Shown: positions 5,035-43,508 of the stretch, in pieces | Layout of the letters: every line of letters begins with the position of its first letter | Position numbering within the stretch: position 1 is the stretch's first letter | Source: a virus | Lineage: Duplodnaviria > Heunggongvirae > Uroviricota > Caudoviricetes | Length of the DNA: 44,146 nucleotides | Virus record (IMG/VR): IMGVR_UViG_2698536573_000002 | Strand: one strand, 5' to 3' | Program-made: the position numbers and the translations under genes | Notes under the pieces: generated by a model | The model's input: only the letters and a program-made list of their open reading frames with translations | Told to the model about the DNA's origin: nothing | Database searches by the model: none

Positions 5035-7819
5035 AACTTAATCTCCGTTGTTGGAACATATGAGCACTCAATTTCTTCTCAAAATCAGAATATCCCGCAT
5101 CTAATGCTCTTTTAGCTGCCGCCTCAGTTTCCTTTGGTGAACCAGCCGGAAGATTGATTACAGGTGAATAGGTTATTCCACCAGTCACAGCGTTAACGTT
5201 CTGGCGAGGTCCAGAAGTCCCGGCGGCAGATATCCCGTGAGGTGATAAATTTGATTGCCCGAACTTGGTTGCTATTGCATTCTGTAAGCTGTTATTCCTG
5301 CTAACACCTGATGCCAGAGTAGTCATTATTGCACCACCTGACTTTGTTAGCTGTGAGAATGGACCTTTTTTCGCGTCAGAGAACGGTAAATACTCACGTA
5401 CAGAAGAAAAAACGCCTTTCACTTCATTAATTAAAGCATTTGCTTTTGATTTTATCCCAGTGATTAACGTCTCAATTATTTTTGCACCTGACTCACTCCA
5501 GTTTATTCCAGATAAATAAGCCGTTACAGATTGGAATGCTCTTATAAAGAGTCCAACTGGTGAAAAACGCATAAAAACAGATACCAGTGTATCTATGATT
5601 TTCTTTCCTGTTTCGCTCCAGTTAACACCAGAAAGATAATTTTTTACATATTTAAACGCTTTAATTAATAACGGAAGCGGAGACATCCATTTAAAAGCAC
5701 TAATTAATGTACTGTAAATCTTTACTCCTGCCGAACTCCAGTTTATATTGGAAAGATAATCCCATGCTTTACCAAACATGGATATAATCCATCCATTGAG
5801 ATCAAAGTTTAAGATAAAGTTTTTTATAGTCTCAAAAGACTTAACAGTGTAATCCTTAATAGCAGGCCAAACTTTTGATGCACATTCTTTTATTTTATCC
5901 CAATTCTGATACAACAATATACCTAACGCCACAATGGCTGATATGGCCATCTGAATCCACCCGAAAGGGGTTAGCTTTGTCGCTACAGATAAAGCCAGCA
6001 TAGCTACCCTACACGCTATAACCACACTTTTCATGGTTAGAAACGCACCTGCCGCCATCACAATCTGAGAAACAAAATTGGGGTTGTTAGCTACAAATTC
6101 ACTGATTTTTGTAATCAGCGGAACCAAAACACTAAGCGCGGCATTTAAAGCAGGTTGCAAGGCCTGACCAAAACTTAATGATGCATTGCTAGCCTGAATA
6201 CGTAATTGTTTCAATCGCTCCGCATTATCTTTCGTTATGTTGGCAAAATCGCGGTCAATAACAGCACTTCCAGCTCCAAGAGATGTTGCTTTGATTCTCT
6301 GGTATTCCTTCCAGTTTTGAATCATCGGACGAACAAAGTTCTGAACCTGCATATCGCCAAATAGCTCACCAAGTAACTTCTGATCTCCGTTCTTAGTCAT
6401 TTTCATGACAGAATGCATTGCAGCTTCGAATGGATTCTTCCCTTTTTTCTGCGCTGTTGTGACAATTTTATATAAATCTACACCGAAATTTTTCTTTGCT
6501 TTTTTTAGTGTTTCAGGGGAAAGTATTTTCGCCAAAAAGTTGTTCATATTATTAGCAGCCTCATCCGAAGTTGCAGCACCTTTGCGAGCTATCTGCAAAG
6601 CTGCCCCCATCGTCGCGGCGGCTTCTTTACCTCCCATTTTTAATGCCTGGAACTGAGCACCAAGCACAGGAAGATTTTTGGCCATATCTTTAAATTCAAA
6701 GTTTCCCTCTTTCCCTGCCTGAACCAGAATCCCCATTGCAGACTTCATTTGAGATGGATCAATCTTCAATGAGTCACTTAATGTAAATGATGCTTTCGAG
6801 ACATCGAGGATATCAGAGCCAGTAGCTGTAGCTGTTCGCCCAATAGTTAGTAGATTCGCCTGAGCCTCTTTATAATCCTGCCCAGCAGCGACAAGAAAAC
6901 CCTGAGCGGCCTGAATATCAGATGCAAACTGGTTGGTGGCCGTTCCGGTAACAAGCATCGCCTGCCCCATCGCCTGAACTTCTTCCGGCTTCATATCTGC
7001 CGTAAGACCAATCATTTTGTTTTCACGATTGAAATTTGCTGCATTGTTAGCAGCAGCAAATGCACCAGCCGCTACAGCACCAGTTTGTAATCCTGACCTT
7101 ACAAGTTGACTCTTTGCCTCACCAAGATGCTCTCGCTTCAATTCACGCTGCCTTTCCAACGCGCGGTTTAACTCCTCCTGAGCACGTTTTACTGCAAGAA
7201 CATTTTTCCGTGCTTCAGCCAACGCATTTTTATAGCTGTTAATTTTATCAATACGTTGTTTTTCTAATGCCCGGTTAAGTTCCTCCTGCTGTTTTTTCAC
7301 TTGCTGAACATTTGCTCTGGCTAAAGCCAAAGCCGTTCTGTAGCGGTTAACCTGCTCAACGCTACGGGCCTGAGCCTCACGATTACGATCAATGCTGGCT
7401 TTAAGCTCTTTCTCTCTTGAGGCCAAAGCTCTGGCAGATGTATCAGCTCCCTGATAGGCAGACTTTAAAGCGGCCAGTTCTTCACGCTGAGAACGTAGTG
7501 ATGCTCGTAAATTCGATGAATGTGTTTTTGCCTTCTCAAAGTCACGAAGCATCGCTCTGGTTGGATTGGCCGTGTTTTTTATTTGCTTCTGTAACTCTTC
7601 AACGCGAGCGGCAGCTTTATGATATTCGAGGGCAGTCTGTCCAACCTTTACTTTTACAGATTGTAGCTTTTGAATTTCCCCATGTTCTTTCGTTAATCCA
7701 GCAAGCTCGGCATTTAATTTAGCAACAGCCTGATTAGCTGTAGTAAAACTTTTGGGGAGAGAGGCGGCAACTTTGCCGCCAATTTCAAAAGCCAGCTTAA
7801 AGTTCTTATTGCTGGCCAT
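5027..7819 (-). CDS. tail tape measure protein
   Basis: 930 aa; long coiled-coil N-terminal half with KAQ/ELNRALE repeats, hydrophobic central segment, located after tail chaperone. Confidence 0.85.
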   Translation of the reverse strand: MASNKNFKLAFEIGGKVAASLPKSFTTANQAVAKLNAELAGLTKEHGEIQKLQSVKVKVGQTALEYHKAAARVEELQKQIKNTANPTRAMLRDFEKAKTHSSNLRASLRSQREELAALKSAYQGADTSARALASREKELKASIDRNREAQARSVEQVNRYRTALALARANVQQVKKQQEELNRALEKQRIDKINSYKNALAEARKNVLAVKRAQEELNRALERQRELKREHLGEAKSQLVRSGLQTGAVAAGAFAAANNAANFNRENKMIGLTADMKPEEVQAMGQAMLVTGTATNQFASDIQAAQGFLVAAGQDYKEAQANLLTIGRTATATGSDILDVSKASFTLSDSLKIDPSQMKSAMGILVQAGKEGNFEFKDMAKNLPVLGAQFQALKMGGKEAAATMGAALQIARKGAATSDEAANNMNNFLAKILSPETLKKAKKNFGVDLYKIVTTAQKKGKNPFEAAMHSVMKMTKNGDQKLLGELFGDMQVQNFVRPMIQNWKEYQRIKATSLGAGSAVIDRDFANITKDNAERLKQLRIQASNASLSFGQALQPALNAALSVLVPLITKISEFVANNPNFVSQIVMAAGAFLTMKSVVIACRVAMLALSVATKLTPFGWIQMAISAIVALGILLYQNWDKIKECASKVWPAIKDYTVKSFETIKNFILNFDLNGWIISMFGKAWDYLSNINWSSAGVKIYSTLISAFKWMSPLPLLIKAFKYVKNYLSGVNWSETGKKIIDTLVSVFMRFSPVGLFIRAFQSVTAYLSGINWSESGAKIIETLITGIKSKANALINEVKGVFSSVREYLPFSDAKKGPFSQLTKSGGAIMTTLASGVSRNNSLQNAIATKFGQSNLSPHGISAAGTSGPRQNVNAVTGGITYSPVINLPAGSPKETEAAAKRALDAGYSDFEKKLSAHMFQQRRLSFG

Positions 7820-23249: not shown

Positions 23250-23450
23250 TTAATGCTCGCGTCGTCCGGCGACAACTTCGGATTTGTATTTCAGGTCGCC
23301 CAGCAAGAATTGCAGTTTAAGCATCTTTGCCGCCGTGTAGTTCCCTGATTCCACAACCTCTTTCATGAGGTCATAAACGGCCGCTACATCATCAGCCAGG
23401 AACTCTTTGCGTTGCTGCTCAGTCGCACGTTTGAAGGAAATACGCATCAC
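23250..23450 (-). CDS. hypothetical protein
   Basis: 66 aa ORF overlapping upstream gene stop. Confidence 0.3.
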   Translation of the reverse strand: MMRISFKRATEQQRKEFLADDVAAVYDLMKEVVESGNYTAAKMLKLQFLLGDLKYKSEVVAGRREH

Positions 23451-23716
23451 TCATCATCTCCTGCCGCACATACAACCTCACAAAAAAAATCAGCAGAATG
23501 TTTCTCCTTGAACGAATGACGCTCAAAACCGCACTCAATATCAGGCGCAAAAACATCCACCACATACGGTCTTTCAGAATGTTTGTTTTCCCAACGATAA
23601 ACCGTAGTGACGTTGAAATGTTTTAACGCTTCACGGAACTCAACGCTGCCCGTCAGGTTTTTTGAGGTCAGGTATTGCAGGAGGTTTTTTACTACTTCAC
23701 GGTCTTGTACTTTCAT
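23447..23716 (-). CDS. hypothetical protein, first gene after repeat copy 1
   Basis: 89 aa; ATG at 23716 is the last triplet of the conserved repeat, RBS GGAGA inside repeat. Confidence 0.4.
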   Translation of the reverse strand: MKVQDREVVKNLLQYLTSKNLTGSVEFREALKHFNVTTVYRWENKHSERPYVVDVFAPDIECGFERHSFKEKHSADFFCEVVCAAGDDE

Positions 23717-23825
23717 CAGATTTCTCCGGTTTAACCAGGGCGGGTATCGCTCGGTTTCGGGTATAACCTTAGGAAATTTTTTCCCACCTGTAAAGCACTT
23801 TTTATATAAATCTATAATTATATAA
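23717..23825 (-). repeat. ~109-bp promoter-bearing repeat, copy 1
   Basis: Near-identical to 29974-30082 and 40078-40187; contains TTTACA-17bp-TAAGGT, 5' leader and RBS. Confidence 0.85.
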
Positions 23826-23827
23826 TT

Positions 23828-24415
23828 TTATGCCACTTGCCAGAGAGCATCATGCAACTGGATACCTCCATTGCACTGGTTGCCCCAGCCATGCCAACCA
23901 TCAGGTAAATCACCGCGAGCAAACAGCTCAATACGAGGAACATCACCTAACAGCCTTACCAGCTTGTCACGAACCACATCAGGCTTCCGAGAATGCTCCA
24001 GACGAGGCGATGTAAACGACTGAATGATCCCCGCATCAAGGCGGGTCGGCAATTTGCCTTTTACCGCAAACAAGCAATCTTCACTGTTTGCACGAGTCAT
24101 ATGCCCCATCCCCATCACCAGCTTATCTGGTTGTCGGCTACCACATTTGTTCCATGTGAAGCCCTTCATGGTCATAAGCCTGAATCCCCATGCTTTCACC
24201 ACCAGCAACGCTTCTTCTGGCTGAGTCGGAACCCACCACATGGCCAACAAACACGATTCAGGATTAGCAAGCTGCCAGACAGGAATACGAGCAATATCCT
24301 CAGCTTTCATCGTTGGATACTTAAAACCAGCTCCACGATTCCCATCCTTACACTTATCTTTGTATTCCCAGGGGGGATCTGCATAAATCAGATTAAACAA
24401 TGCAATTGCCTCCAT
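23828..24415 (-). CDS. MT-A70 family DNA N6-adenine methyltransferase
   Basis: 195 aa starting ...LIYADPPWEY (DPPW catalytic motif near N-terminus). Confidence 0.75.
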   Translation of the reverse strand: MEAIALFNLIYADPPWEYKDKCKDGNRGAGFKYPTMKAEDIARIPVWQLANPESCLLAMWWVPTQPEEALLVVKAWGFRLMTMKGFTWNKCGSRQPDKLVMGMGHMTRANSEDCLFAVKGKLPTRLDAGIIQSFTSPRLEHSRKPDVVRDKLVRLLGDVPRIELFARGDLPDGWHGWGNQCNGGIQLHDALWQVA

Positions 24416-24723: not shown

Positions 24724-24799
24724 TGGTGGCCCCTACCGGATTTGAACCGATGACCGTGCGATTATGAGTCGCCTGCTCTAACCACTAAGCTAAGGGGCC
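24724..24799 (-). tRNA. tRNA with anticodon CAT, ileX/ileY-like (tRNA-Ile2 type; Met not excluded)
   Basis: 76-nt cloverleaf: acceptor GGCCCCT/AGGGGCC, D-arm GCTTAGTGGTTAGAGC, anticodon loop CTCATAA, T-arm GGTTCAAATCC, encoded CCA. Confidence 0.8.
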
Positions 24800-24968
24800 A
24801 TATTTGATTTGTTTGTCTGGTGTGGCGCCGCGCACGAAAATCCCAGCCAATAAATTCAGGATTTTTGGGCGCGGCGGCATATCAGACAAACATGGTTGAT
24901 GCGTGCGCCCATGAGAAAAGCGCATAGAATGTTGTAACTATATATTTATATAATTATAGAAATATATA

Positions 24969-25178
24969 TTACTTTCGGCAGTTGATTTCCCATGCCCTGT
25001 TATGAGCCAGAATATCTTTCTTTGTCTGGCGGTCCATAACATCGATGTCGTGATCAGTCAGGTAGATGGGCTTTACCCAATCACAGGCGGTATCAACCAC
25101 CACCGGGACGCTTCCACGACTCCCGCAGCTCGCGATCAACATCGTCATCAGCCATATGGTTAACACTCTGCTGTACAT
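24969..25178 (-). CDS. o-spanin (Rz1-like lipoprotein)
   Basis: 69 aa with lipobox-like LIASC after hydrophobic N-terminus; overlaps 3' end of i-spanin gene in another frame. Confidence 0.5.
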   Translation of the reverse strand: MYSRVLTIWLMTMLIASCGSRGSVPVVVDTACDWVKPIYLTDHDIDVMDRQTKKDILAHNRAWEINCRK

Positions 25179-28828: not shown

Positions 28829-28905
28829 TGTCGAGGCGTCCTTATACATTTATATAAATATATAATTCTATATACGGCGGGAGACATCCCGCCGTAGGCT
28901 TACTG

Positions 28906-29973
28906 TCAGGCTTTCAATAGCGATTCTTTCAGATATCGGGCATCAGCCAGGGCGTTTGGAGTAATCTTGCGAACCCATGCATTACGGGTTGGACTCCACT
29001 TAAAGGCGCGTGATTTAAGCAGCGAACGAATGTTTGCCTCTGGTTTGCCAGGGAAATAAAACAGGATGCGGTTATCCTCTGGATCTATCTCCATAGAAAA
29101 GCCGTCGTATTCTTCGCGCTGTGCTCCTGTTACAGACTTGACCGATTCAAGCTCCTTAATACGGCTCTGTAGTCGTTTGATTTCGGCATTATTGTTACTC
29201 AGTGAGTATGAAGGGAAGCCAATGTGCCCACAGAAATCTCCGGCGAGTAACCCTTTGGCTTCGCTTTCAGTAAACTCAAGGTCAATTAATGCGGAAAGCT
29301 GCTGTAATTGGTCTTTTTTGTATTTGCGAATAGCCTTATTTGCGGCCTTCATTTTGATGTGTGACTTCATGCAGCCTTGCAGCTTACGAAGCAACTTAAA
29401 TAGCGCATCAGGATCATCAGACGAAACTCCATTACGGCCGACACCTGCGGCTTTGCTTTCGTAGTACGATGCTCTGCTTTCACACTCAACAAACGATTTT
29501 CTGAATAACGCATCAGCTTTAGACAAACGGCGGCGATGGCCTTTCGCGCTATAATGGTCAACTAAAATCGGCTGGCCTAACGGGATCACATCCAACAGTT
29601 CATGCGCTCGCTTATGCGCCACCGCACCTTCTTTTCTGGCTTTTTCTGCACGAGCAATATATCGGGCAAGACGCGCGTTCTGGCGTTCCTGATAGGTATT
29701 TACGTAATCATCTCCGCGCTGCTGCTGTTCAAGCCATGCTTTGCGCAGCTTTTCTGTTACGTCTACCAACTCTGCAGGGATACAACCTGTTTGGGATTCA
29801 TAAGAGTGACCATCCTCATAAAGACGTCCATCGTCTTCAACAACGAAAAAGGTTTCGTGCTCATCGCTTTTGACCATACGGCCATTAACATGACGTAATC
29901 TATAGCCAGTATCAGTGCTCAACAGGCTGTTAGGGTTGTTGATCCAGTCAGAAATAATTACTTGTTTATTCAT
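28906..29973 (-). CDS. hypothetical protein (355 aa), first gene after repeat copy 2
   Basis: ORF 28906-30123; start at 29973 (MNKQV) preferred because it is the ATG closing the conserved repeat. Confidence 0.45.
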   Translation of the reverse strand: MNKQVIISDWINNPNSLLSTDTGYRLRHVNGRMVKSDEHETFFVVEDDGRLYEDGHSYESQTGCIPAELVDVTEKLRKAWLEQQQRGDDYVNTYQERQNARLARYIARAEKARKEGAVAHKRAHELLDVIPLGQPILVDHYSAKGHRRRLSKADALFRKSFVECESRASYYESKAAGVGRNGVSSDDPDALFKLLRKLQGCMKSHIKMKAANKAIRKYKKDQLQQLSALIDLEFTESEAKGLLAGDFCGHIGFPSYSLSNNNAEIKRLQSRIKELESVKSVTGAQREEYDGFSMEIDPEDNRILFYFPGKPEANIRSLLKSRAFKWSPTRNAWVRKITPNALADARYLKESLLKA

Positions 29974-30082
29974 CAGATTTCTCCGGTTTAACCAGGGCGG
30001 GTATCGCTCGGTTTTGGGTATAACCTTAGGAAATTTTTTCCCACCTGTAAAGCACTTTTTATATAAATCTATAATTATATAT
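29974..30082 (-). repeat. ~109-bp promoter-bearing repeat, copy 2
   Basis: One mismatch vs copy 1 over ~105 bp; -35 tgtaaa at 30046-30051, -10 acctta at 30023-30028 (plus-strand coordinates). Confidence 0.85.
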
Positions 30083-30143
30083 TTATAGATTTTCCGATAT
30101 TCCCGGTGCCTACAAATCACCAAAACAGCTCAAAATGACACTT

Positions 30144-32494: not shown

Positions 32495-32512
32495 TTAACT
32501 AACTCCAGTTAA

Positions 32513-32629
32513 ACCACGATATGTGGTATTAAAACCACAAATCGTGAGTTTTTCAATGGGAAAACAAAAAATAACCTTCTATTTGTGGTCTACCTCTCGT
32601 CTTGCCGTGTGAAAACCACTAAATGTGGT
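32513..32629. promoter_or_regulatory. immunity-region operators, consensus ACCAC-N5-GTGGT
   Basis: accacgatatgtggt 32513-32527, accacaaatcgtgag 32534-32548 (imperfect), half-site gtggt 32585-32589, accactaaatgtggt 32615-32629, between divergent regulator genes. Confidence 0.6.
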
Positions 32630-33329: not shown

Positions 33330-33371
33330 TACACAGCACGGCGAAAGCCGTGCATTTCTACGCTCAAAAAA

Positions 33372-33386
33372 ACCACGCTTTGTGGT
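33372..33386. promoter_or_regulatory. additional ACCAC-N5-GTGGT operator downstream of repressor gene
   Basis: accacgctttgtggt, perfect half-sites. Confidence 0.5.
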
Positions 33387-33421
33387 TTTGACAACATGAA
33401 AAAGTATAAAAGAGGCTACGC

Positions 33422-33796: not shown

Positions 33797-33820
33797 CTGC
33801 AAGCGGGCTAACGCCCGCTT

Positions 33821-33930
33821 ATATGATTATAGATTTATATAATTATATAAAACACTTTTCATCCGCCAAAAAGTTGGTTATGCTTACCTCATTCTATAAA
33901 TATAGATTTATAGAATTATATAATCAAACA
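33821..33930. repeat. clustered AT-rich palindromic motifs upstream of parA (candidate centromere/operator)
   Basis: tatgattatagatttatataattatataa and tataaatatagatttatagaattatataa; same core as in the three promoter repeats. Confidence 0.5.
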
Positions 33931-33946
33931 CATGGAGTCTCGACAA

Positions 33947-34600
33947 ATGACTATATCTGTAGGTATTTTCAACGGAAAAGGCGGCGTAACCAAATCAACC
34001 ATTGCTCGTGCTTTAGCAGTTGCTTATGCAAAGGCTGGCTGGAATGTATGCCTGATCGATATGGATGTGCTTAACGGAACGGTAACGCGTTGGGTACAAC
34101 GCAGAATGGCCAACAATATCGAACCTGCAATCGCGGCGCAGCCGTGCGGCACGCCATCACAAGTCCAGAAAATCATCGAATCAGAAGTATACGACCTGGT
34201 TATCGTTGATGGCGGTGCCTACGCATCTGAATCAGTACCGAAGCTCTCTGAATTTCTGGATATGGTTATTTTGCCAACCAGATTCTCTACCGATGACCTG
34301 GAAACCACCGTTAACACAGCTCACGGCATCGTTAAAAAGGGTGTACCAATCAAGAAAATTTGCATGGTGTTTTCCGGCGCGGCTGAAAACGAAGCTGACT
34401 ATATTGAAGCCCAAGAGTACCTGGCTAATACGCCATACTTTGTTGTCGATAAGTACATTCCCCACAAGCCAGCTCTGAGCAAAGCTCAGGATAAAGGCTT
34501 AAGCCTCATTGAGTGCTCATACGTTGCGCCACGCAAAAAAGCAGACGACGTTATTCAGGGGATTATCAACCAGCTTGAGGCTCTGACTACTGCCGCGTAA
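33947..34600 (+). CDS. ParA/ParF-type partition ATPase
   Basis: Deviant Walker A GIFNGKGGVTKST; start at second ATG (GGAG 9 nt upstream); ORF from 33932. Confidence 0.8.
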   Translation: MTISVGIFNGKGGVTKSTIARALAVAYAKAGWNVCLIDMDVLNGTVTRWVQRRMANNIEPAIAAQPCGTPSQVQKIIESEVYDLVIVDGGAYASESVPKLSEFLDMVILPTRFSTDDLETTVNTAHGIVKKGVPIKKICMVFSGAAENEADYIEAQEYLANTPYFVVDKYIPHKPALSKAQDKGLSLIECSYVAPRKKADDVIQGIINQLEALTTAA

Positions 34601-34643
34601 TATATAATTATAGTTTTATAGATTTATATAAGAGAGGATACAC

Positions 34644-34892
34644 ATGGCCGCACCATCAAAACCACCAAAGAAGAACAGCAAAGGCGTACCGCCATCGATC
34701 GAACAACCGCAGGTTTTCGACCCGACTGAAACGCCAGCCAGAACCAAATCAGGTGGGGCACAAATGGCGTTTAACGTCGACCCTGAATTTAAACGCGAGT
34801 ACAAAACGTTCGCCAGCTCAATGGATATGTCATTGAAAGAAGTGCTAACAAAATCTTTTGAGTTACTCAAGGCTCAATACAACCAGAAGTAA
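34644..34892 (+). CDS. ParG-like ribbon-helix-helix partition protein
   Basis: 82 aa, unstructured basic N-terminus then RHH-like MAFNVDPEFKREYKTFASSMDMSLKEVL; RBS GAGAGGA. Confidence 0.55.
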   Translation: MAAPSKPPKKNSKGVPPSIEQPQVFDPTETPARTKSGGAQMAFNVDPEFKREYKTFASSMDMSLKEVLTKSFELLKAQYNQK

Positions 34893-35112: not shown

Positions 35113-35136
35113 ATAAAAAAGGCCCCCGAAGGGGCC
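35113..35136 (-). terminator. intrinsic terminator (minus-strand orientation)
   Basis: ggcccc-cgaa-ggggcc hairpin followed by U6 on minus strand, directly after small ORF 35143-35265. Confidence 0.5.
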
Positions 35137-35142
35137 TAATCG

Positions 35143-35265
35143 CTACTTGCTGCTAATGTTTATCGTCACATTCAGAGCGTTATCAGTAATCTTCCAACCC
35201 TCTCCATGTGGCGTAAACAAAGCCCCAGTAACAACGATAAAAATACACATGTAGTATTTTTTCAT
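35143..35265 (-). CDS. small hydrophobic peptide (40 aa)
   Basis: MKKYYMCIFIVVTGALFTPHGEGWKITDNALNVTINISSK; RBS AAGGG; own terminator. Confidence 0.35.
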   Translation of the reverse strand: MKKYYMCIFIVVTGALFTPHGEGWKITDNALNVTINISSK

Positions 35266-35655
35266 TGTGTGGCCCTTACAGGCCGTTTCACGGCATCCCC
35301 ACCGACGAAAATGACGCGAGAGCAAGCACGCTGTTTGTGCCTGCGTGGTACGGCAAGTGGATAATCCTTTCCTGAAAGTCAGTGCCCGGGTGCGAATCGG
35401 CGGAAAGGCCCCAAGCCATATTACACGTCATACCCTTCATAATGAAGGAATAAAAAACGCTTTTATTACATGAGATTACACGTAAATAAGTTAAAAACCT
35501 TCATTTTGCATGAGCTAATGAGCTAAATTTTTTTATATGAATAGTGGACTATTCACCTCAGTTAGGTAAGAATGTAGTTGCTGTTTGTGCTTGCGTGGTT
35601 GTATTAGTACAACGACGTTATGCTGAAAGGACCGCGAATCCGATCAGCACGAAAG

Positions 35656-36419: not shown

Positions 36420-36521
36420 AATGCGCCATTGGTGGACACTTTCCGAGCCGTAGCAAAATCTACGGTCGGGATTGGAACCCCGATAATCATCATGGCGCAT
36501 ACCGCGTTAGCGGTTTTTTTA
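36420..36521 (+). ncRNA. candidate small regulatory RNA (c4-like) upstream of antirepressor operon
   Basis: TTGACA at 36412-36417; terminator accgc-gtta-gcggt + T7 at 36501-36520; short elements complementary to leader near 36603-36634. Confidence 0.3.
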
Positions 36522-36685
36522 TGCGTAAAGCACTGCTACACCCAAATTATGGTGGGGCGTGCGGGGGAGTCGTAAGACTCGCCGGATTCCATGGTGACCG
36601 GTAGTTCCAACCCTGTACGTCTCACCACCCAATGATTGGAACCAGACGGTGGTGAGTATCCTTAACCTTTAAGGGAACTATCACC

Positions 36686-36877
36686 ATGACAAACCTACCC
36701 CATGACTATTACGTCAACCTCGTAAAGATCCTTCTCAAGAAAGCCTCATACGCCGATAAATTCCGCCTGGCTGAAATCATCGAGCGCGAAGCTATGCGCA
36801 TCGCCAGCAACGATAACGCTGTTTCTGTCGCAAAAATCTCCCTCGTAACCAAAGTAGTTATGGGAGGTGCAAAATGA
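36686..36877 (+). CDS. small leader protein translationally coupled to antirepressor (icd-like position)
   Basis: 63 aa; stop TGA overlaps ant ATG (ATGA); RBS AAGGGA. Confidence 0.45.
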   Translation: MTNLPHDYYVNLVKILLKKASYADKFRLAEIIEREAMRIASNDNAVSVAKISLVTKVVMGGAK

Positions 36878-38055
36878 AAACGCTTCCGACCGTTAACACC
36901 CTACAGCCTATCCTGCATAACCAGCTCCCCGTTATCACTACTGAACTACTGGCGCAATTGTATGGAACCGAGCGCCAACGTCTGACAAACAATTTCAATA
37001 GAAACAAGGAACGTTTTATAGAAGGTAAACACTTTTTTAGGATAGAAGGTAAAGAGTTACGAGAGTTGAAGAACAAAAACTCTTTAAGAGTTCCTGTGAG
37101 AGTAGTTAACGAACCATCTTTAAGAGGGTTACAAATTCCCCCGAAAGTTCGCTCCCTCATCCTCTGGACAGAACGCGGGGCTGCACGTCACGCCAAAATG
37201 CTTGAAACTAACCAAGCGTGGGATGTGTTCGAACGGCTGGAAGACAGCTACTTCAACCAGAACGCACAAACGGCCGCGACCGTAACCGTCTCACCAAACA
37301 ATGCTCGTGAGGTTGTCGATACGCTCAACGCCAAACCAATGTATTACGTTAAGGTGTGCAACAACGAGCCACTCACAACCTCAGCCGATGTAGCCCAGGC
37401 ATTCAGCACCACAAACAATTCCATCGTTATGGCCATCGATGCATTACGCATTCCTCGCACAGCTGCGGCACGTCATTTCTTTAAAGAGCAACGACCGCTG
37501 GAAGGAAGCGACCGCGAAATAACAATCTATCGCATGACAAAAGACGGATTTACCTTGCTCATGGAAAGTATCGACGGTCCAGGCGTGAAGGATATCAAGC
37601 TGGCCTACATTGAAGCCTTTAACGCTATCAGCAGCGTGTTAAAGGCAGAATACGAGCGAATGCTATACAACCGACTGTATCAGGAAACAAAGATTATCCG
37701 AACGGCAACAGAACATCATCGGCTATTAACGGAACCAAACTACCGCAAGACACTAATCAAAGAGTTTGACAAGGCGACGGAGAAAACTAAAGCGGCACTA
37801 AATCTACCAACAATGACTAAAGATGATGTGATATCAGCCTTACTTCTTGATCTGCTCAGAAACGTCAGAGCACTTATCAGTTTTGACGAAAACCTGAATC
37901 CTCAGCTCAAGCTACTACCACCGACAGGCAAAGTAGTCGACCAAGCAGATCACAACAGCATACTCAGCGTACTGGATGCAAACCTGCCAGCCAGGACACT
38001 ACAGGAGCTGATAAAAATATCTGCGGATAAACTGGCCGCAGGTGCAAAACCATAA
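36874..38055 (+). CDS. antirepressor (ORF6N/KilA-N-like N-terminal domain plus Rha-like domain)
   Basis: 393 aa; N-terminal LPVITTELLAQLYGTERQRLTNNFNRNKERF and central MYYVKV...TIYRMTKDGFTLLM blocks. Confidence 0.6.
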   Translation: MKTLPTVNTLQPILHNQLPVITTELLAQLYGTERQRLTNNFNRNKERFIEGKHFFRIEGKELRELKNKNSLRVPVRVVNEPSLRGLQIPPKVRSLILWTERGAARHAKMLETNQAWDVFERLEDSYFNQNAQTAATVTVSPNNAREVVDTLNAKPMYYVKVCNNEPLTTSADVAQAFSTTNNSIVMAIDALRIPRTAAARHFFKEQRPLEGSDREITIYRMTKDGFTLLMESIDGPGVKDIKLAYIEAFNAISSVLKAEYERMLYNRLYQETKIIRTATEHHRLLTEPNYRKTLIKEFDKATEKTKAALNLPTMTKDDVISALLLDLLRNVRALISFDENLNPQLKLLPPTGKVVDQADHNSILSVLDANLPARTLQELIKISADKLAAGAKP

Positions 38056-38057
38056 AA

Positions 38058-38090
38058 CAAAGCGCCCGATTTGGGCGCTTCTTCAATTCT
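38058..38090. terminator. bidirectional intrinsic terminator between convergent genes
   Basis: agcgccc-gattt-gggcgct flanked by T-rich tracts on both strands. Confidence 0.5.
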
Positions 38091-38725
38091 TAATATTTCG
38101 GTGTAATCAGTAGCGATACATGCCCTGATTTGTCACGAGAAACGTAATACTCGCCTCTCTTAGTCTTGAACTCAGCTTTCTGCATATCTGATTTAACAAT
38201 CTGCTCTAACTGCGCAATCACGGTGTCTCTTTCACTTGACGCATCCAAGACTTCAACTGCTACGGCCATAGAAAGCAAGGAATCAGAGTTAGGCTTGGAT
38301 ACTCGCCATAATAACTCAGAAATCTTCCCATCCTTATCAACTCTAGCCCGACCGTTAACAGATGAGTTGATGGCAAATTCAACGGTGTTATTACCTTGTT
38401 TAACAGACTTAATTCTTATAGTGGAGGTGGCTTTTCCTGATGTAGCGATGCCTTCAAGGTCATCATTATATAACTGCTTAAACTTATCTACGGTCACACC
38501 ATCAAAAGCAGCTCCGGTAGTAGCCGCAGTGTTGGAGTCTTCTGGGATCAAGGTCACAGCCGCAAGAGTATTAACAACTACAAAAGTAGCAATCCCGAGA
38601 AAGCCACTCACTAAAACAGCTTTGAACTTACCACCAGAAGACGAGGCACATTGTTTCCGATATGCGCCACGAACTACGAAGAAACACAAAATCAGGCTAA
38701 TAATAAACGCCACCAGCATCCCCAT
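38090..38725 (-). CDS. membrane protein with two N-terminal TM helices
   Basis: 211 aa; hydrophobic segments then soluble domain; RBS AAGGAG. Confidence 0.45.
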   Translation of the reverse strand: MGMLVAFIISLILCFFVVRGAYRKQCASSSGGKFKAVLVSGFLGIATFVVVNTLAAVTLIPEDSNTAATTGAAFDGVTVDKFKQLYNDDLEGIATSGKATSTIRIKSVKQGNNTVEFAINSSVNGRARVDKDGKISELLWRVSKPNSDSLLSMAVAVEVLDASSERDTVIAQLEQIVKSDMQKAEFKTKRGEYYVSRDKSGHVSLLITPKY

Positions 38726-39290
38726 AGAAATCTCCTTTTAGATATAAGGGTAAAGCAATATCGTATTAGATCTTCCTTAAGACACAACCCCCCCTCCCCC
38801 CATACAGGGTGCCCTTTACCGGAGTTCCGGCCCCTTCTCAAAAGCATCAAAAAAAGCTCGAGATCGAGTACCGGAACTCATGCCACCAGATAGCTCCACA
38901 TCGTTTCCAATGCTTCGCCGCCGTGTGCGCCCTGTGGCCCACAATCATGCCATTGGTCGTCTGATATACCTTCTTCTGCTCATTGAGCACAGGCGAGTTG
39001 TCGCACTCCTGCCTTTCTCAGACTCGACTTAGTTTAGATCGCTGTTCCTGGCTTGCGTCAGCACACTTTCCCCTTGTACGCATACCCGCGCGCCACTTCG
39101 CCCAAAAACACCGAACCCAACGAAGTAGCAAAGACAACGACGCGAGCGTGAGTCTGAAACGTGCACCAGTAAAAAAGGGGTTGCAGGCGCAAAAAGATTT
39201 GATTATCTTTAGACGCAAGAAAGCCGCCCCAATCAAGAGGTGTCTTTTTAAATCCAGCCTACCAAGCAAGATTTAAATTTCAGACTGAAA

Positions 39291-39320
39291 ACCGCCCGGC
39301 AAGGCGGTTTTTGTCTTTCT
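39291..39320 (+). terminator. intrinsic terminator (plus strand)
   Basis: aaccgcc-cggcaa-ggcggtt followed by TTTTTGTCTTTC. Confidence 0.5.
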
Positions 39321-39360
39321 GGCGCTTACATTACACCACCATAAAACGATCCGTAAAGGA

Positions 39361-39633
39361 TCATTTGATCTCTTGTTCCAATTCTGACGACACTTTAACC
39401 TTTTCCCATACAAGGGTTTGCAGCCTTAACAGAATCGCATCTTTATCAAGGTGTGAAAGATCCTTAACCATATCGTCAAATGACAGAACGCGAATGGCCA
39501 TCTCAATGACCCTCGGCGGCTCCCCCTTCTCATATCGCTTATATGTAGCCAACGATATCCCAAATTCTTCGGCGGCTCGCTCCTGCGTCCAGTTCATCCC
39601 ACGACGCCATAATTTCAATTCATAACCCGTCAT
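39361..39633 (-). CDS. XRE-family HTH protein
   Basis: Start at MTGYEL (GGAGG 5 nt upstream); LKLWRRGMNWTQERAAEEFGISLATYKRYEKGE. Confidence 0.55.
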   Translation of the reverse strand: MTGYELKLWRRGMNWTQERAAEEFGISLATYKRYEKGEPPRVIEMAIRVLSFDDMVKDLSHLDKDAILLRLQTLVWEKVKVSSELEQEIK

Positions 39634-39696
39634 AGCATCCTCCTCGCACAATATTAACACTCGCAAAGTGTCAAAATGACACTTTGCGTATTGTGT

Positions 39697-40077
39697 TTAC
39701 TTAACGAGGAATAAAAATGGTTTATTGTTCGGCGGTGTAATCGGAGCTGGCTCGCTTTTGCTCATGCGATCAGTGTACCAGGCCAGCTCCTTGTCAAAGT
39801 AAGCCTGATTAAAATAGGCAATGAATGTAGTTTCAAATCCATAACGACCGCTAATACGCAGCATCTGATTGCCGTTCTCTGTTTCCAGATATACCTGGGC
39901 ACGTTCCTGATTCTCCTTCAGCCAGGTTAAAGCCTCATCGCACGAGGACACACGATACTCATCATCGTAGCCGTCATCGATGCGGCTTGAAGAAGAACGG
40001 CAAATCACGCCAACAGAACCAGCCAGGATAGTTTGAATTTTAAGGAAAGCGTTTTTGCGGATTTTAATCATGCTCAT
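39697..40077 (-). CDS. hypothetical protein, first gene after repeat copy 3
   Basis: 126 aa; ATG at 40077 closes the conserved repeat. Confidence 0.4.
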   Translation of the reverse strand: MSMIKIRKNAFLKIQTILAGSVGVICRSSSSRIDDGYDDEYRVSSCDEALTWLKENQERAQVYLETENGNQMLRISGRYGFETTFIAYFNQAYFDKELAWYTDRMSKSEPAPITPPNNKPFLFLVK

Positions 40078-40187
40078 CGGGTTATCTCCGGTTTAACCAG
40101 GGCGGGTATCGCTCGGTTTCGGGTATAACACTAGGAAATATTTTCCCACCTGTAAAGCACTTTTTATATAAATCTATAATTATATAA
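40078..40187 (-). repeat. ~109-bp promoter-bearing repeat, copy 3
   Basis: About 95 percent identical to copies 1 and 2; same -35/-10 spacing. Confidence 0.85.
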
Positions 40188-40240
40188 TTCCATGAGCACA
40201 AAAAAGCCCCTTTGCAACAGGGGCTTATCATTCGTTCTGA

Positions 40241-41131: not shown

Positions 41132-41422
41132 CTATTTTTGTGACTTTACTCCTGGCATATGGACTTCCCAGCGACGAATCCCCATAGCTGCGCAAAAATC
41201 AGCCACATAATTCAATCCCGCCCATTCGCGGATACCACCACGGGCTTTTTCAATGAAAACGGCAATCCCTTTTTTATTGAGAGCAAAAAGCCGCCAGCTT
41301 TTTGTCACTTCGTCCTGGGTAGCCACAACACAAGTGAAAGCTCCCATGCGATACAGGTCCAAGAACTCTTTGCGTGTTTTGCGTACAAGTTCCATAACAA
41401 ACCTCATATTTGCATGTTTCAA
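41132..41422 (-). CDS. hypothetical protein (second gene of two-gene module beside ori)
   Basis: 96 aa; start overlaps upstream gene stop. Confidence 0.35.
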   Translation of the reverse strand: MKHANMRFVMELVRKTRKEFLDLYRMGAFTCVVATQDEVTKSWRLFALNKKGIAVFIEKARGGIREWAGLNYVADFCAAMGIRRWEVHMPGVKSQK

Positions 41423-41706
41423 ACATCTGTTTTGTTATCAATGAAGATTAACCCTAACCCAGCGAAGTAACACAGCAGCGCCCAGGCTGCATACGGAATG
41501 CTGGATCTGGATGTGGACTCCTTTAACATCTGCCAGTTGCGAACATTGCGACTATCTTTTAAGCCTAGTTTTTTGGCCAACTGCGAGCCGCTCATTCCGG
41601 TCAGGCCAATGACTGCCCGAACTTCTCCACATGTAGGAGATTCCCATTCATCCGCTTTTTTTAAACAAGCCGGATTCAACATTTTTAAAACAGTATCTTT
41701 ATCCAT
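41419..41706 (-). CDS. small HTH-like protein with C-terminal TM helix
   Basis: Start at third ATG (GGAG 6 nt upstream); LTGMSGSQLAKKLGL then IPYAAWALLCYFAGLGLIFI. Confidence 0.35.
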   Translation of the reverse strand: MDKDTVLKMLNPACLKKADEWESPTCGEVRAVIGLTGMSGSQLAKKLGLKDSRNVRNWQMLKESTSRSSIPYAAWALLCYFAGLGLIFIDNKTDV

Positions 41707-41759
41707 AACCATCTCCATTTATTATATCTACGATGGTAGGAAATCTTTTCCTATGTGGC

Positions 41760-42349
41760 AATAGAAATTTACTACATTGCGTATAAGACAAGTTTTCTAT
41801 GTCTAATAGAAAAGGATGTTTCTTACGTTTTGTCGCGTTCTGATTGCTACTGTGTGCGTATTTATCGACGTTTATTGATAAGGTCCGTCCCTTCCTCCTG
41901 CAAAGCCCGGCCGTAGGCCTTATTTCGGCCTTATATAAATTGATTTTGTATAGTTCGAAACGCGCCGTTTCGAAAAGGATGATCAGGCTGCTCCATGCCT
42001 CCGGCAAGTGCCGGAGGAGGTATATTTGAGCGTAGCGACTCGAACCGGCGCGAGCTTTAGCTCGCTGCAAGGGCGAACATATTCACAGGCAAAGCCTGCG
42101 TAAGTTAAATAAAGAAAGTCTTAATAAAAGAAAGTGATTTTGCATTTATTTGTTTAGTGCATCTATTATAAAAAACCATTTGCATATACATATCAAAACT
42201 GTGGATAACTTTATTATCCGATGCCTGTAAAGGCGATATTTTTGCTGTGTTCAGGTTTAGAGAAAATTAATTTAGACTATTTTTTGAACAGATATTTTAT
42301 TGCGACGTAGATAATCCTCCGGTAAAACCGGATTCATCATTCAGGTGGG
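41760..42349. other. putative plasmid replication origin region downstream of repA
   Basis: AT-rich; DnaA box TTATCCACA (revcomp of 42200-42208); palindromes ttcgaaacg-cgc-cgtttcgaa and cctccggca-ag-tgccggagg near 41950-42015. Confidence 0.45.
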
Positions 42350-43362: not shown

Positions 43363-43379
43363 AACCACGTTACGTGGTT
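43363..43379. promoter_or_regulatory. ACCAC-N5-GTGGT palindrome in repA promoter region
   Basis: aaccacgttacgtggtt, perfect, ~36 bp upstream of repA leader ORF start. Confidence 0.5.
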
Positions 43380-43508
43380 TTGAGAGAACTCTACCACAAC
43401 ACTTTCGGTCATGCACGAAGTCTCTCACTGATCGAACGATAATCCACCAGTAAAAGGATCTAAATTGGATCTCGTTTTGCGAGCATCATACTACTGGCCT
43501 AACTCCAG

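What the first reader, a model, noticed from the sequence alone, without database searches (positions are those of the whole stretch)
39361..40187. Strong-promoter operon of an unknown 126-aa protein followed by an XRE-HTH protein
Promoter repeat 3 drives a 126-aa protein of no recognisable family and a ~90-aa HTH regulator. A small unknown gene followed by an HTH regulator is the layout of anti-defence (acr-aca-like) loci and of toxin-first TA pairs.
Basis: inference. Interest (0 to 1): 0.6.

Follow-up and report, generated by a model that had tools for sequence, protein, structure and literature searches.

The report
Unknown early gene behind Aca-type promoter
A small phage-plasmid protein with no known relatives is transcribed from a promoter that occurs three times and carries the binding-site layout of an anti-CRISPR-associated repressor encoded 1.3 kb away, so it is a good but untested candidate for a counter-defence or establishment factor, whereas the regulator gene next to it looks like a separate unit.

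Summary
There is a 126-aa ORF (39697-40077), a 90-aa XRE-type HTH ORF (39361-39633), and one of three near-identical promoter-leader cassettes (about 40078-40195). Both genes are under purifying selection. "Strong promoter" and "operon" are not established.

The window is a ~48-kb enterobacterial phage-plasmid. The 126-aa protein has no Pfam, NCBIfam, PADLOC or PDB relative, and some distant homologues are fused to LPD25.

The main result concerns a different regulator. Each cassette carries a 17-bp inverted repeat (TAGGAAA-N3-TTTCCTA type) between -35 and -10. The same repeat lies in the promoter of a 99-aa HTH gene (41419-41718). That protein is homologous to the Aca domain of AcrIF24 (profile E 7e-11), whose operator has the same geometry and position. 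In six divergent lineages the 126-aa family lies within 2 kb of such an Aca-like gene and behind the same promoter design.

The cassettes also carry 8-bp iteron arrays identical to those at the parA promoters. The adjacent 90-aa HTH is separable: insertions and disruptions occur at the junction, and its homologues have unrelated neighbours.

The toxin-antitoxin reading is unsupported. An anti-defence or establishment role is plausible but unproven.

The parts
39697..40077 (-). 126-aa protein of an uncharacterised family. It has a ~105-aa alpha/beta domain and a disordered C-terminal tail that ends in a short hydrophobic motif (PFLFLVK).
40078..40195 (-). Copy 3 of a promoter-leader-RBS cassette that occurs three times. 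In order it holds an iteron array, -35 TTTACA (40156-40151), a 17-nt spacer, -10 TAGTGT (40133-40128), a ~44-nt leader with a predicted hairpin, and a GGAGA Shine-Dalgarno sequence.
   Evidence: Three-way alignment. Leader fold z -3.0. The same design precedes the homologues in L018, L020, L024, L026, L015 and L023.
40132..40148 (.). 17-bp inverted repeat (TGGGAAA-ATA-TTTCCTA on the minus strand) between -35 and -10. Predicted operator of the Aca-like 99-aa HTH protein.
   Evidence: The pattern TAGGAAANNNTTTCCTA with up to 2 mismatches occurs exactly 4 times in the window (0.26 expected): the 3 cassettes and the promoter of the 99-aa HTH gene. Geometry and position match the AcrIF24 operator IR23-24 (PMC9001735).
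40164..40195 (-). Array of 8-bp iterons (TTATATAA TTATAGAT TTATATAA) just upstream of -35. The same units occur at the parA and parG-like promoters.
   Evidence: 42 matches to the two-unit pattern against 0.77 expected, clustered at 8 loci. Repeat families. Arrays in L018 match that element's own par arrays.
39662..39688 (.). Perfect 12-bp-arm palindrome (CGCAAAGTGTCA-TTT-TGACACTTTGCG) between the two genes. It is a hairpin at the 3' end of the 126-aa unit, a candidate operator of the 90-aa HTH protein, or both.
   Evidence: RNA fold -22.5 kcal/mol, z -3.5. Conserved in relatives with matching changes in both arms and flipped loops. Scored as terminator-like on the + strand. A similar motif lies upstream of HTH homologues in L029 and L027.
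39361..39633 (-). 90-aa XRE-type HTH protein, weakly similar to RstR, MqsA and HipB. It is a separable regulator module.
   Evidence: HTH_3 6e-7. RstR subfamily 2.4e-8, below its cut-off. MqsA/HipB E 0.06-0.2. Homologues at ~55% identity have unrelated neighbours. Junction insertions. IS110 disruption in L006.
39286..39313 (.). Bidirectional intrinsic terminator after the HTH gene.
40204..40226 (-). Intrinsic terminator after higA. It separates the 126-aa unit from the upstream higBA genes.
41419..41718 (-). 99-aa HTH protein homologous to the C-terminal Aca domain of AcrIF24. Predicted repressor, acting in trans, of the three cassettes and of its own promoter.
   Evidence: phmmer against PDB: AcrIF24 1.5e-5. 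Profile: AcrIF24 6.8e-11, Aca3 8.4e-5. Homologous to the HTH gene adjacent to 126-aa homologues in distant loci.
41733..41761 (-). Promoter of the Aca-like gene (TTGCCA-17-TACCAT), with the perfect operator TAGGAAA-AGA-TTTCCTA (41737-41753) in its spacer.
   Evidence: The same arrangement occurs in L003, L006 and L014.
29974..30090 (-). Cassette copy 2. It drives an operon starting with a DUF3560 protein (355 aa), followed by a MarR-like protein, an Ead/Ea22-like protein and others.
23717..23830 (-). Cassette copy 1. It drives 89-, 66- and 99-aa genes, then a ParB_N protein and a ParB_N-methyltransferase fusion.
33819..34639 (+). Partition region. Iteron arrays at 33819-33850, 33884-33931 and 34600-34639 flank parA (33947-34600).
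   Evidence: ParA annotation.
34644..34892 (+). 82-aa small protein downstream of parA. It is a candidate ribbon-helix-helix centromere-binding protein and a candidate binder of the iteron arrays.
   Evidence: The position after a type Ib-like parA, and a C-terminal beta-helix-helix sequence pattern, are inference. There is no Pfam or PDB hit. The orthologue in L018 differs in the putative beta-strand, as do the arrays.

Best explanation
The 126-aa gene is the cargo of one of three identical early promoter-leader cassettes of a ~48-kb phage-plasmid.

Shown by sequence:
- The cassette holds a 17-bp inverted repeat between -35 and -10. This repeat recurs only at the other two cassettes and in the promoter of a 99-aa HTH gene (41419-41718).
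- That protein is a homologue of the Aca (autorepressor) domain of AcrIF24, whose experimentally defined operator has the same 7+3+7 geometry and the same position.
- The cassette also holds an array of 8-bp iterons identical to those at the parA and parG-like promoters.

Inferred:
- When the element enters a cell that holds no repressor, the three cassettes fire together. They express the 126-aa protein, a DUF3560 operon and a ParB-methyltransferase operon.
- As the Aca-like repressor accumulates, and possibly the small partition protein too, the cassettes are shut down. This is the entry burst followed by repression that is described for acr-aca loci.
- The 126-aa protein has no catalytic signature, a compact alpha/beta domain and a disordered tail with a short hydrophobic motif. 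It most probably acts by binding a host protein, as a counter-defence or other establishment function.
- Transcription largely ends at, or is attenuated by, the conserved hairpin at 39662-39688.
- The 90-aa XRE protein downstream is a second, separable regulator. It probably recognises that same palindrome (GTGTCA-N3-TGACAC) and so sets its own expression and any read-through. It is not the repressor of the 126-aa promoter and not an antitoxin.
For: Cassette triplication. Operator statistics: 4 sites against 0.26 expected, all of them promoters. Homology of the 99-aa HTH protein to AcrIF24-CTD (E 1.5e-5 for the single sequence, 6.8e-11 for the profile) and to Aca3 (8.4e-5). The AcrIF24 operator TAGCTCG-ATC-CGAGCTA lies between -35 and -10 and mediates repression (PMC9001735).

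The same operator sits in both the Aca-like promoter and the cassette in Salmonella and other relatives. In every locus with enough flank except one, an Aca-like gene lies within 2 kb of the 126-aa homologue on the same strand; it is directly adjacent in L015, L016, L018, L024 and L026, and one small gene away in L020 and L022. The same promoter design, with lineage-specific half-sites (TAGGACT, TAGGAC, TAGGCC, GTAGGACG, GGACC), precedes the homologue in those lineages.

Iteron arrays are shared with the par promoters, and they differ together in L018. The co-regulated operons carry typical early or establishment genes. Some distant family members are fused to LPD25, a domain of polyvalent proteins of conjugative elements that is proposed to act early in invasion (PMC5512222). 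One homologue lies between parAB and TraM/relaxase genes. Aca proteins are already known to control several operons and non-acr anti-defence genes (PMC13551039).

Separability of the 90-aa HTH gene. Motif upstream of HTH homologues.
Against: No binding, transcription or phenotype data exist; every regulatory step is inferred from sequence. The -10 hexamer is weak (3 of 6), so promoter activity is itself unproven.

The 126-aa family is a conserved, syntenic gene across very divergent phage-plasmids (27-40% identity). Anti-defence cargo is usually variable, so this pattern fits a core regulatory or maintenance role at least as well.

The other cassette operons are not proven anti-defence genes. 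No similarity to any solved Acr or anti-defence protein was found. The RHH nature of the 82-aa protein is only inferred, and the AT-rich arrays could be UP elements.

The palindrome stays with the 126-aa gene when insertions separate it from the 90-aa HTH gene, which weakens its role as that protein's autoregulatory operator. The matching changes in both arms could come from template switching rather than from selection.
Confidence: 0.45

Rival explanations
1. Core regulatory or maintenance partner of the Aca-like HTH protein. The 126-aa protein would be an integral part of the phage-plasmid's own circuitry, not a weapon against the host. For example it could be an anti-repressor or co-regulator that binds the 99-aa HTH protein, or an accessory factor for replication, partition or the plasmid-versus-lytic decision.
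For: The family is kept at a syntenic position next to the same HTH family and behind the same promoter design in six divergent lineages, unlike typical variable anti-defence cargo. It always lies in the plasmid-maintenance module near parA, rep or resolvase genes. Its promoter shares iterons with the partition operon.
Against: Relatives fused to LPD25, and one in a conjugative-plasmid setting without an Aca-like gene within 5 kb, suggest a function independent of that HTH protein. The co-regulated operons are accessory-type genes. There is no DNA-binding or known regulatory fold.
Confidence: 0.25
2. One reading: a two-gene acr-aca-like operon in which the adjacent 90-aa XRE protein is the Aca. 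It would repress the promoter of the 126-aa anti-defence gene.
For: The layout is a small unknown gene followed 63 nt later by an HTH gene on the same strand with no canonical terminator between them. The pair is conserved in Salmonella and Klebsiella relatives. Homologues of the HTH protein elsewhere lie beside variable accessory or defence-like genes, as mobile regulators do.
Against: The only match to its candidate operator in the window lies downstream of the 126-aa gene, not in that gene's promoter. The promoter carries a different repeat, shared with the Aca-like gene. The protein has no similarity to known Acas or to the 99-aa HTH protein. In 12 of 62 plasmids an opposite-strand gene separates the two genes. 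The 126-aa family outside Enterobacteriaceae lacks this HTH protein.
Confidence: 0.15
3. A toxin-first type II toxin-antitoxin pair, with the 126-aa protein as toxin and the 90-aa HTH protein as antitoxin and autorepressor.
For: The gene order and sizes resemble higBA or mqsRA. The HTH protein has weak similarity to the MqsA and HipB antitoxin HTH domains.
Against: There is no similarity to any toxin family in Pfam, PADLOC, NCBIfam or PDB. Homologues of the HTH protein keep the same C-terminal region beside unrelated neighbours, so there is no partner-specific neutralising domain. The HTH gene is disrupted by IS110 (L006), uncoupled from its Shine-Dalgarno sequence by a ~320-bp insertion in viable phages, or separated by a 567-bp insertion, all with the 126-aa gene intact. 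The promoter is shared with two non-TA operons. The spacer is 63 nt and holds a hairpin, where tight coupling would be expected. A genuine HigB/HigA pair already lies next door.
Confidence: 0.05

Closest known systems
acrIF23-acrIF24 locus and AcrIF24-CTD, an Aca-type autorepressor (PMC9001735, PMC9638941)
   Same: The 99-aa HTH protein is a sequence homologue of AcrIF24-CTD, including the recognition-helix N-x-R and the 'AAW' motif. The operator is an inverted repeat with 7-bp arms and a 3-bp spacer, of TAG...CTA type, lying between -35 and -10.
   Different: Here the HTH protein stands alone and is not fused to an Acr domain. It is encoded 1.3 kb away, with its own operator-bearing promoter, and is predicted to act in trans on three further promoters. 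The cargo (126 aa) is unrelated to AcrIF23 or AcrIF24, and no anti-CRISPR activity is known.
Aca regulators that control several operons and non-acr anti-defence genes, including the RHH-type Aca14 (PMC13551039)
   Same: One regulator with the same operator at several promoters. The cargo includes uncharacterised genes and genes linked to LPD domains.
   Different: Here the promoter, the leader and the RBS are all triplicated as a ~110-nt cassette, and each cassette also carries partition-type iterons.
Global regulons of plasmid partition or centromere-binding proteins: omega of pSM19035, KorB of RK2, ParG of TP228 (from my own knowledge, not checked here)
   Same: Short iterated repeats at the par promoter recur at other promoters of the same replicon. 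This links maintenance functions to accessory operons.
   Different: Binding by the 82-aa protein has not been shown and its fold is not confirmed. Here the arrays lie upstream of -35 in cassettes that also hold a second operator.
CUP (conserved upstream repeat) elements of the IncN pKM101 leading region, which precede ardA, ardB and related genes (from my own knowledge: Delver & Belogurov 1997)
   Same: A repeated promoter-containing element placed in front of several early or establishment genes.
   Different: There is no sequence relationship. This replicon is a phage-plasmid, not a conjugative plasmid, and the element is much shorter.
Type II TA pairs with an XRE antitoxin (HigBA, MqsRA, HipBA)
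   Same: A small gene next to an XRE-type HTH gene, and weak similarity of the HTH domain to MqsA and HipB.
   Different: There is no toxin homology, no obligate pairing, natural loss of the HTH gene is tolerated, and the promoter is shared (see the membership test).

Membership tests
acr-aca-type anti-defence locus | The regulator belongs to a recognised Aca family. | tested here: met
   For the 99-aa HTH protein (41419-41718): AcrIF24-CTD at E 6.8e-11, Aca3 at 8.4e-5, Aca1 at 0.24 with the profile, and 1.5e-5 with the single sequence. For the adjacent 90-aa HTH protein the feature is NOT met: only MqsA, HipB and RstR-like matches.
acr-aca-type anti-defence locus | An inverted-repeat operator of the Aca within or overlapping the -35/-10 of the cargo promoter. 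| tested here: met
   A 17-bp inverted repeat at 40132-40148 lies between -35 (40156-40151) and -10 (40133-40128). The same repeat lies in the Aca-like gene's own promoter. There are 4 sites against 0.26 expected. Binding itself was not tested.
acr-aca-type anti-defence locus | Cargo gene and aca gene in one operon, with aca downstream. | tested here: inconclusive
   Not so in this window, where the Aca-like gene is 1.3 kb upstream with its own promoter. In L015 and L024 the Aca-like gene lies directly downstream of the homologue on the same strand; in L020 and L022 one small gene, preceded by its own cassette copy, lies between them; in L016, L018 and L026 it lies directly upstream. Co-transcription was not tested.
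acr-aca-type anti-defence locus | The cargo protein inhibits a host defence system. | not testable with these tools
   No similarity to any solved Acr or anti-defence protein. Plating or interaction assays are needed.
Type II toxin-antitoxin (toxin first) | The toxin belongs to, or folds like, a known toxin superfamily. | tested here: not met
Type II toxin-antitoxin (toxin first) | Obligate, partner-specific pairing of the antitoxin with the toxin family. | tested here: not met
   Homologues of the HTH protein have unrelated neighbours. The 126-aa family outside Enterobacteriaceae lacks this HTH protein.
Type II toxin-antitoxin (toxin first) | The antitoxin gene cannot be lost while the toxin gene is intact. 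| tested here: not met
   IS110 lies in the HTH gene with the 125-aa gene intact (L006). In vB_YpM_41 and vB_YpM_44 a ~320-bp insertion lies between the Shine-Dalgarno sequence and the ATG. Twelve of 62 plasmids carry a 567-bp insertion. Expression levels in these variants are unknown.
Type II toxin-antitoxin (toxin first) | Growth arrest by the toxin, relieved by the antitoxin. | not testable with these tools
   Needs expression experiments.
Regulon of a partition centromere-binding protein (omega, KorB or ParG type) | Iterated short repeats at the par promoter recur at other promoters of the replicon. | tested here: met
   8-bp units occur at 33819-33850, 33884-33931 and 34600-34639 (par region) and at 23802-25, 24938-69, 28842-73, 30059-90 and 40164-95: 42 matches against 0.77 expected. 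In L018 the arrays at par and at the cassettes share that element's own unit sequences.
Regulon of a partition centromere-binding protein (omega, KorB or ParG type) | A small RHH or HTH centromere-binding protein is encoded after parA and binds the repeats. | tested here: inconclusive
   An 82-aa ORF follows parA. It has no Pfam or PDB match. The RHH assignment rests only on the sequence pattern, and binding was not tested.
LPD25 / polyvalent-protein-associated domains (Iyer et al. 2017) | The protein contains the LPD25 domain. | tested here: not met
   The 126-aa protein has no LPD25 hit. Only distant relatives (P0058, P0061-P0063) carry LPD25 C-terminal to the shared N-domain, at or just below the Pfam cut-off.
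Roadblock/longin-like alpha/beta fold | Structural superposition with significant scores. | tested here: not met

The most novel reading that the evidence does not exclude
The 126-aa family is a new counter-defence or host-takeover protein with a new fold, carried by phage-plasmids. It is expressed from a triplicated promoter-leader cassette under dual control: an AcrIF24-type Aca repressor, and the plasmid's own partition (centromere-binding) protein. In this reading the level of partition protein, which is zero on entry and diluted during lytic replication, gates the element's early arsenal.
Probability: 0.25. Interest if true: 0.75.

Novelty: new variant of a known kind. Interest (0 to 1): 0.55.

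Why it matters
If the model is right, this common family of E. coli, Salmonella and Klebsiella phage-plasmids has a compact early regulon that can be recognised from sequence alone. The regulon consists of three identical cassettes plus the repressor's own promoter. It is controlled by a relative of a characterised Aca.

The first genes behind the cassettes would then be a short, well-justified list of candidates for new anti-defence or establishment functions. They are the 126-aa protein, a DUF3560 protein and an 89-aa protein.

The partition-type iterons in the same promoters suggest a link between plasmid maintenance proteins and early gene control. I found no description of such a link for this group. 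All of it can be tested directly with reporter fusions, band-shift assays and plating assays in E. coli.

Tried and rejected
I used viral contigs and protein look-ups in its place.
- A profile search of the 126-aa family against PDB sequences gave only noise.
- I tested whether the 90-aa HTH protein is related to the Aca-like HTH protein. No similarity was found.
- I tested whether proteins upstream of the HTH homologues in other loci belong to the 126-aa family. They do not.
- I tested whether the 96-aa protein after the Aca-like gene corresponds to the LPD25-like 76-aa protein of L020. No similarity was found.
- An internal sigma-70 promoter for the HTH gene inside the palindrome (TTGACA plus a 15-nt spacer plus TATTGT) is possible. 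Its spacing is poor and it is not consistent among relatives, so I left it as uncertain.
- I considered the single in-frame stop between the two ORFs as a read-through fusion and rejected it. The frame relation is not kept in Salmonella (coordinates).
- My initial guess that the element belongs to the pSLy3 group was wrong. That group belongs to the ~100-kb SSU5 supergroup.
- Rfam gave no family for the cassette leader, the palindrome or the downstream non-coding block.
- A literature search by protein accession found nothing.
Full report
**What the window is.** The region is 98-99.9% identical to about 60 non-mobilizable ~48-kb plasmids of E. coli, E. fergusonii, E. albertii and Klebsiella. 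It is about 71% identical to three Salmonella plasmids. It also matches three Yersinia pestis myophages, vB_YpM_39, vB_YpM_41 and vB_YpM_44. The annotated neighbours are an IncFII-type RepA, ParA, a DNA invertase, tail-fibre genes, a CI-like repressor and an ORF6N/Rha antirepressor. The element is therefore a phage-plasmid. My first guess at its named group, pSLy3, was wrong.

**The observation.**
- The 126-aa ORF is 39697..40077 and the HTH ORF is 39361..39633, 90 aa from its ATG.
- Against the Salmonella and Klebsiella orthologues, both genes have far fewer non-synonymous than synonymous differences (pN 0.18-0.23, pS 0.54-0.78). They are real genes.
- The 90-aa protein matches HTH_3 (6e-7). 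It weakly resembles RstR-family repressors and the HTH domains of MqsA and HipB.
- The 126-aa protein has no Pfam, PADLOC or NCBIfam match, only phrog_8090 of unknown function.
- A terminator at 40226-40204 separates the unit from a HigB (Gp49)/HigA pair upstream. Another terminator at 39286-39313 follows the HTH gene.

**The promoter repeat.** The block runs from an AT-rich array through the promoter, a ~44-nt leader and the Shine-Dalgarno sequence to the ATG. The copies end at ATGs 23716, 29973 and 40077. Copies 1 and 2 are nearly identical, and copy 3 differs at a handful of positions. The core hexamers are TTTACA, a 17-nt spacer, and TAGTGT (TAAGGT in copies 1 and 2). That is only 8 of 12 matches, and the consensus scan did not report the site. 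'Strong' is therefore not shown by sequence, although the AT-rich DNA upstream could act as an UP element.

**The 126-aa protein.**
- It belongs to a small family: 17 close clusters in 5.8 billion proteins, and 36 clusters at 50% identity in a full profile search.
- Members share a ~100-aa N-terminal domain (IRKNAxKKI..., DD, WL, GxYxF), a disordered linker and a short hydrophobic C-terminal motif. The motif is PFLFLVK here and NVVSLCAYRxR-like in others.
- An AlphaFold2 model is confident (pLDDT 82.5) for a beta-alpha-beta-beta-alpha-beta-beta-beta-alpha domain, with residues 109-126 disordered.
- Several distant members carry Pfam LPD25 C-terminal to the shared domain. [quoted passage not shown]
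- One such member lies between parAB and TraM/Toprim/relaxase-type genes. The others lie in the maintenance module of ~40-kb phage-plasmid-like contigs.

**The key result: the promoter's operator and its probable repressor.** Each cassette has a 17-bp inverted repeat exactly filling the spacer between -35 and -10 (40132-40148 in copy 3). The pattern TAGGAAA-N3-TTTCCTA, with up to 2 mismatches, occurs four times in the 44-kb window against 0.26 expected. The four sites are the three cassettes and, as a perfect copy, the spacer of the promoter TTGCCA-17-TACCAT in front of a 99-aa gene at 41419..41718.

That 99-aa protein matches the C-terminal HTH domain of AcrIF24. The E-value is 1.5e-5 for the single sequence and 6.8e-11 for a four-sequence profile. 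Aca3 follows at 8.4e-5 and Aca1 at 0.24. AcrIF24-CTD was shown experimentally to repress the acrIF23-24 promoter. [quoted passage not shown] That is the same 7+3+7 geometry, the same TAG...CTA ends and the same position as here. In the Salmonella and other enterobacterial relatives the operator is again present both in the Aca-like gene's promoter and in the cassette.

**Conservation of the association.** I searched all fetched loci with profiles of both families. An Aca-like gene lies within 2 kb of the 126-aa homologue, on the same strand, in every locus with enough flank except the conjugative-plasmid locus L025.
- It lies directly downstream in L015 and L024; in L020 and L022 one small LPD25-like gene lies between them.
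- It lies directly upstream in L016, L018 and L026.
- It lies 1.3-1.7 kb upstream in the enterobacterial group.

The homologue is preceded in each lineage by the same promoter design. It has an AT-rich array in most lineages, a -35 of TTGCxx type, a palindrome with lineage-specific half-sites (TAGGACT-AAA-AGTCCTA, TAGGAC-GAAAA-GTCCTA, TAGGCC-TAAAG-GGCCTA, GTAGGACG-TTT-CGTCCTAC, GGACC-AAC-GGTCC), a -10, a leader with a GGCC...GGCC-type hairpin, and a CCGGAGATAA-CCGATG-like RBS. In L018 and L020 the cassette is itself repeated, two and three times, in front of neighbouring genes. Recent work shows that Acas can regulate several operons and non-acr anti-defence genes, including LPD-domain genes, and that an RHH protein can serve as an Aca (PMC13551039). 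The kind of system is therefore known.

**A second layer: partition-type iterons.** Directly upstream of -35 each cassette carries three 8-bp units (TTATATAA TTATAGAT TTATATAA). The same units form arrays at 33819-33850 and 33884-33931, upstream of parA. They also form an array at 34600-34639, upstream of an 82-aa gene that follows parA, and arrays at 24938-24969 and 28842-28873. In total there are 42 matches against 0.77 expected. In L018 the arrays use different units (AAGATATA, TTTATATA, AATATATC), and these are shared between its cassettes and its own parA promoter. This suggests that one protein binds both. The 82-aa protein is the obvious candidate, but its ribbon-helix-helix nature is only inferred because it has no Pfam or PDB match.

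**The co-regulated operons.** Copy 2 drives a DUF3560 protein, a MarR-like protein, an Ead/Ea22-like protein and small unknown genes. Copy 1 drives three small unknown genes, a ParB_N protein and a ParB_N-methyltransferase fusion. These are typical early or accessory genes of phages and plasmid leading regions.

**The adjacent 90-aa HTH gene is a separable module.**
- A perfect palindrome with 12-bp arms lies between the two genes (39662-39688). As RNA it folds at -22.5 kcal/mol, z -3.5.
- The palindrome is conserved in relatives. Both arms change together (CGC/GCG, GG/CC, ATGCTC/GAGCAT; GTGTCA to GTATCA with TGACAC to TGATAC), and the loop flips between relatives (TTT/AAA, ATT/AAT). The loop flips show that template switching operates here, so the paired changes do not prove selection for RNA structure.
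- A similar motif, GTG(T/A)CA-N3-TG(A/G)CA(C/T), lies 37 bp upstream of a stand-alone HTH homologue (L029). It also lies in the promoter region of an HTH-containing operon (L027). This suggests it is this protein's operator. The enrichment is modest: 3 hits in 24 kb against a background of roughly 1 per 50-100 kb.
- The junction is an insertion hotspot. Twelve of 62 plasmids carry a 567-bp segment with an opposite-strand 141-aa gene between the palindrome and the HTH gene. vB_YpM_41 and vB_YpM_44 carry a ~320-bp element with inverted ends between the Shine-Dalgarno sequence and the ATG. One relative has IS110 inside the HTH gene while the 125-aa gene is intact.
- HTH homologues at ~55% identity, with the same conserved C-terminal helices, lie beside unrelated genes: membrane proteins plus an Mrr-like nuclease, an AAA_15/21 ATPase, and a HerA-like ATPase.

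These facts argue against an antitoxin. They also argue against this protein being the repressor of the 126-aa promoter.

**Interpretation.** The best-supported model is an early, entry-triggered regulon. With no repressor in a naive cell the three cassettes fire, and the Aca-like protein, possibly with the partition protein, then shuts them off. Within this regulon the 126-aa protein is most probably a binding-type effector that acts on a host component.

Against a simple 'new Acr' reading, the family is a conserved syntenic gene across very divergent phage-plasmids. That pattern equally fits a core regulatory or maintenance role, so I keep that as the main rival (0.25).

**Limits.** No binding, transcription or phenotype has been measured. 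The operator-repressor assignment rests on homology, shared sites and their conservation. The role of the iterons rests on their co-occurrence with the par promoters in two lineages. The function of the 126-aa protein remains unknown.

Noticed in passing
window 38770-39360: A non-coding block of about 590 nt lies between the HTH gene and the variable 211-aa gene. It is 88-95% identical between E. coli, Salmonella and Klebsiella relatives whose flanking genes are only ~71% identical. It is confined to this phage-plasmid family, is unannotated and matches no Rfam family. Two local hairpins show compensatory changes. It could be a structured leader, an ncRNA or a cis-acting site.
   Followed up: partly
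L002 about 6435-6760 (Yersinia phage vB_YpM_41; same in vB_YpM_44); window equivalent 39633/39634: A ~320-bp element with terminal inverted repeats (GGGGTTCCGTGGG...CCCACGGAACCCC) and a duplicated GCTATG is inserted between the Shine-Dalgarno sequence and the ATG of the 90-aa HTH gene. It looks like a MITE.
   Followed up: no
L031 696-1121 (E. coli plasmid NZ_CP023368.1); window equivalent about 39640-39655: Twelve of 62 related plasmids carry a 567-bp insertion here. It encodes a 141-aa protein on the opposite strand with an N-terminal hydrophobic segment and no Pfam or NCBIfam hit. It converges on the 126-aa gene at the palindrome.
   Followed up: partly
window 36447-36632 (+) and 36874-38055 (+): isrK-like and C4 antisense RNA genes, both above their Rfam gathering scores, lie directly upstream of an ORF6N/Rha antirepressor gene. 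This is a P1 immI-like antisense-controlled antirepressor module.
   Followed up: no
window 35115-35413 (-): A full-length ryfA RNA match (134.7 bits against a gathering score of 80) lies in the region between the par genes and a 179-aa HTH gene.
   Followed up: no
window 32512-32532, 33371-33391, 43363-43383: Three copies of the palindrome AACCAC-N6-GTGGTT. They lie next to the CI-like repressor gene, upstream of the 124-aa/parA genes, and upstream of repA. They may be operators that link immunity, partition and replication.
   Followed up: no
window 23447-23716 (-) and 28906-29973 (-): The first genes behind the other two cassettes are an 89-aa protein (phrog_6143, unknown function) and a 355-aa DUF3560 protein. 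They share the promoter, leader and RBS of the 126-aa gene, so they are equally candidates for early or anti-defence functions.
   Followed up: partly
window 24938-24969 and 28842-28873: Two further 8-bp iteron arrays occur without the full cassette. One lies upstream of a tRNA gene (24727-24799, minus strand) and an MT-A70-like methyltransferase ORF. The other lies upstream of the MarR-like gene inside the operon of cassette 2.
   Followed up: no
window 40078-40121 and the equivalent leaders in L018, L020, L023, L024, L026: The cassette leader contains a hairpin whose outer stem differs between lineages but stays paired (AACC/GGTT here, GGCC/GGCC elsewhere). The fold z-score here is -3.0. It may be a stabilising or regulatory element of the 5' UTR.
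   Followed up: partly
window 39634-39699: The 126-aa and 90-aa ORFs are in the same frame, separated by a single TAA and 21 sense codons. The frame relation is not kept in the Salmonella relative, so it is probably a coincidence.
   Followed up: yes
window 38090-38725 (-) and the equivalent slots in L003, L004, L005: The gene downstream of the conserved non-coding block varies between relatives (211, 214, 264 and 218 aa, all without Pfam hits). Here it has an N-terminal membrane segment. This looks like a cargo hotspot.
   Followed up: no
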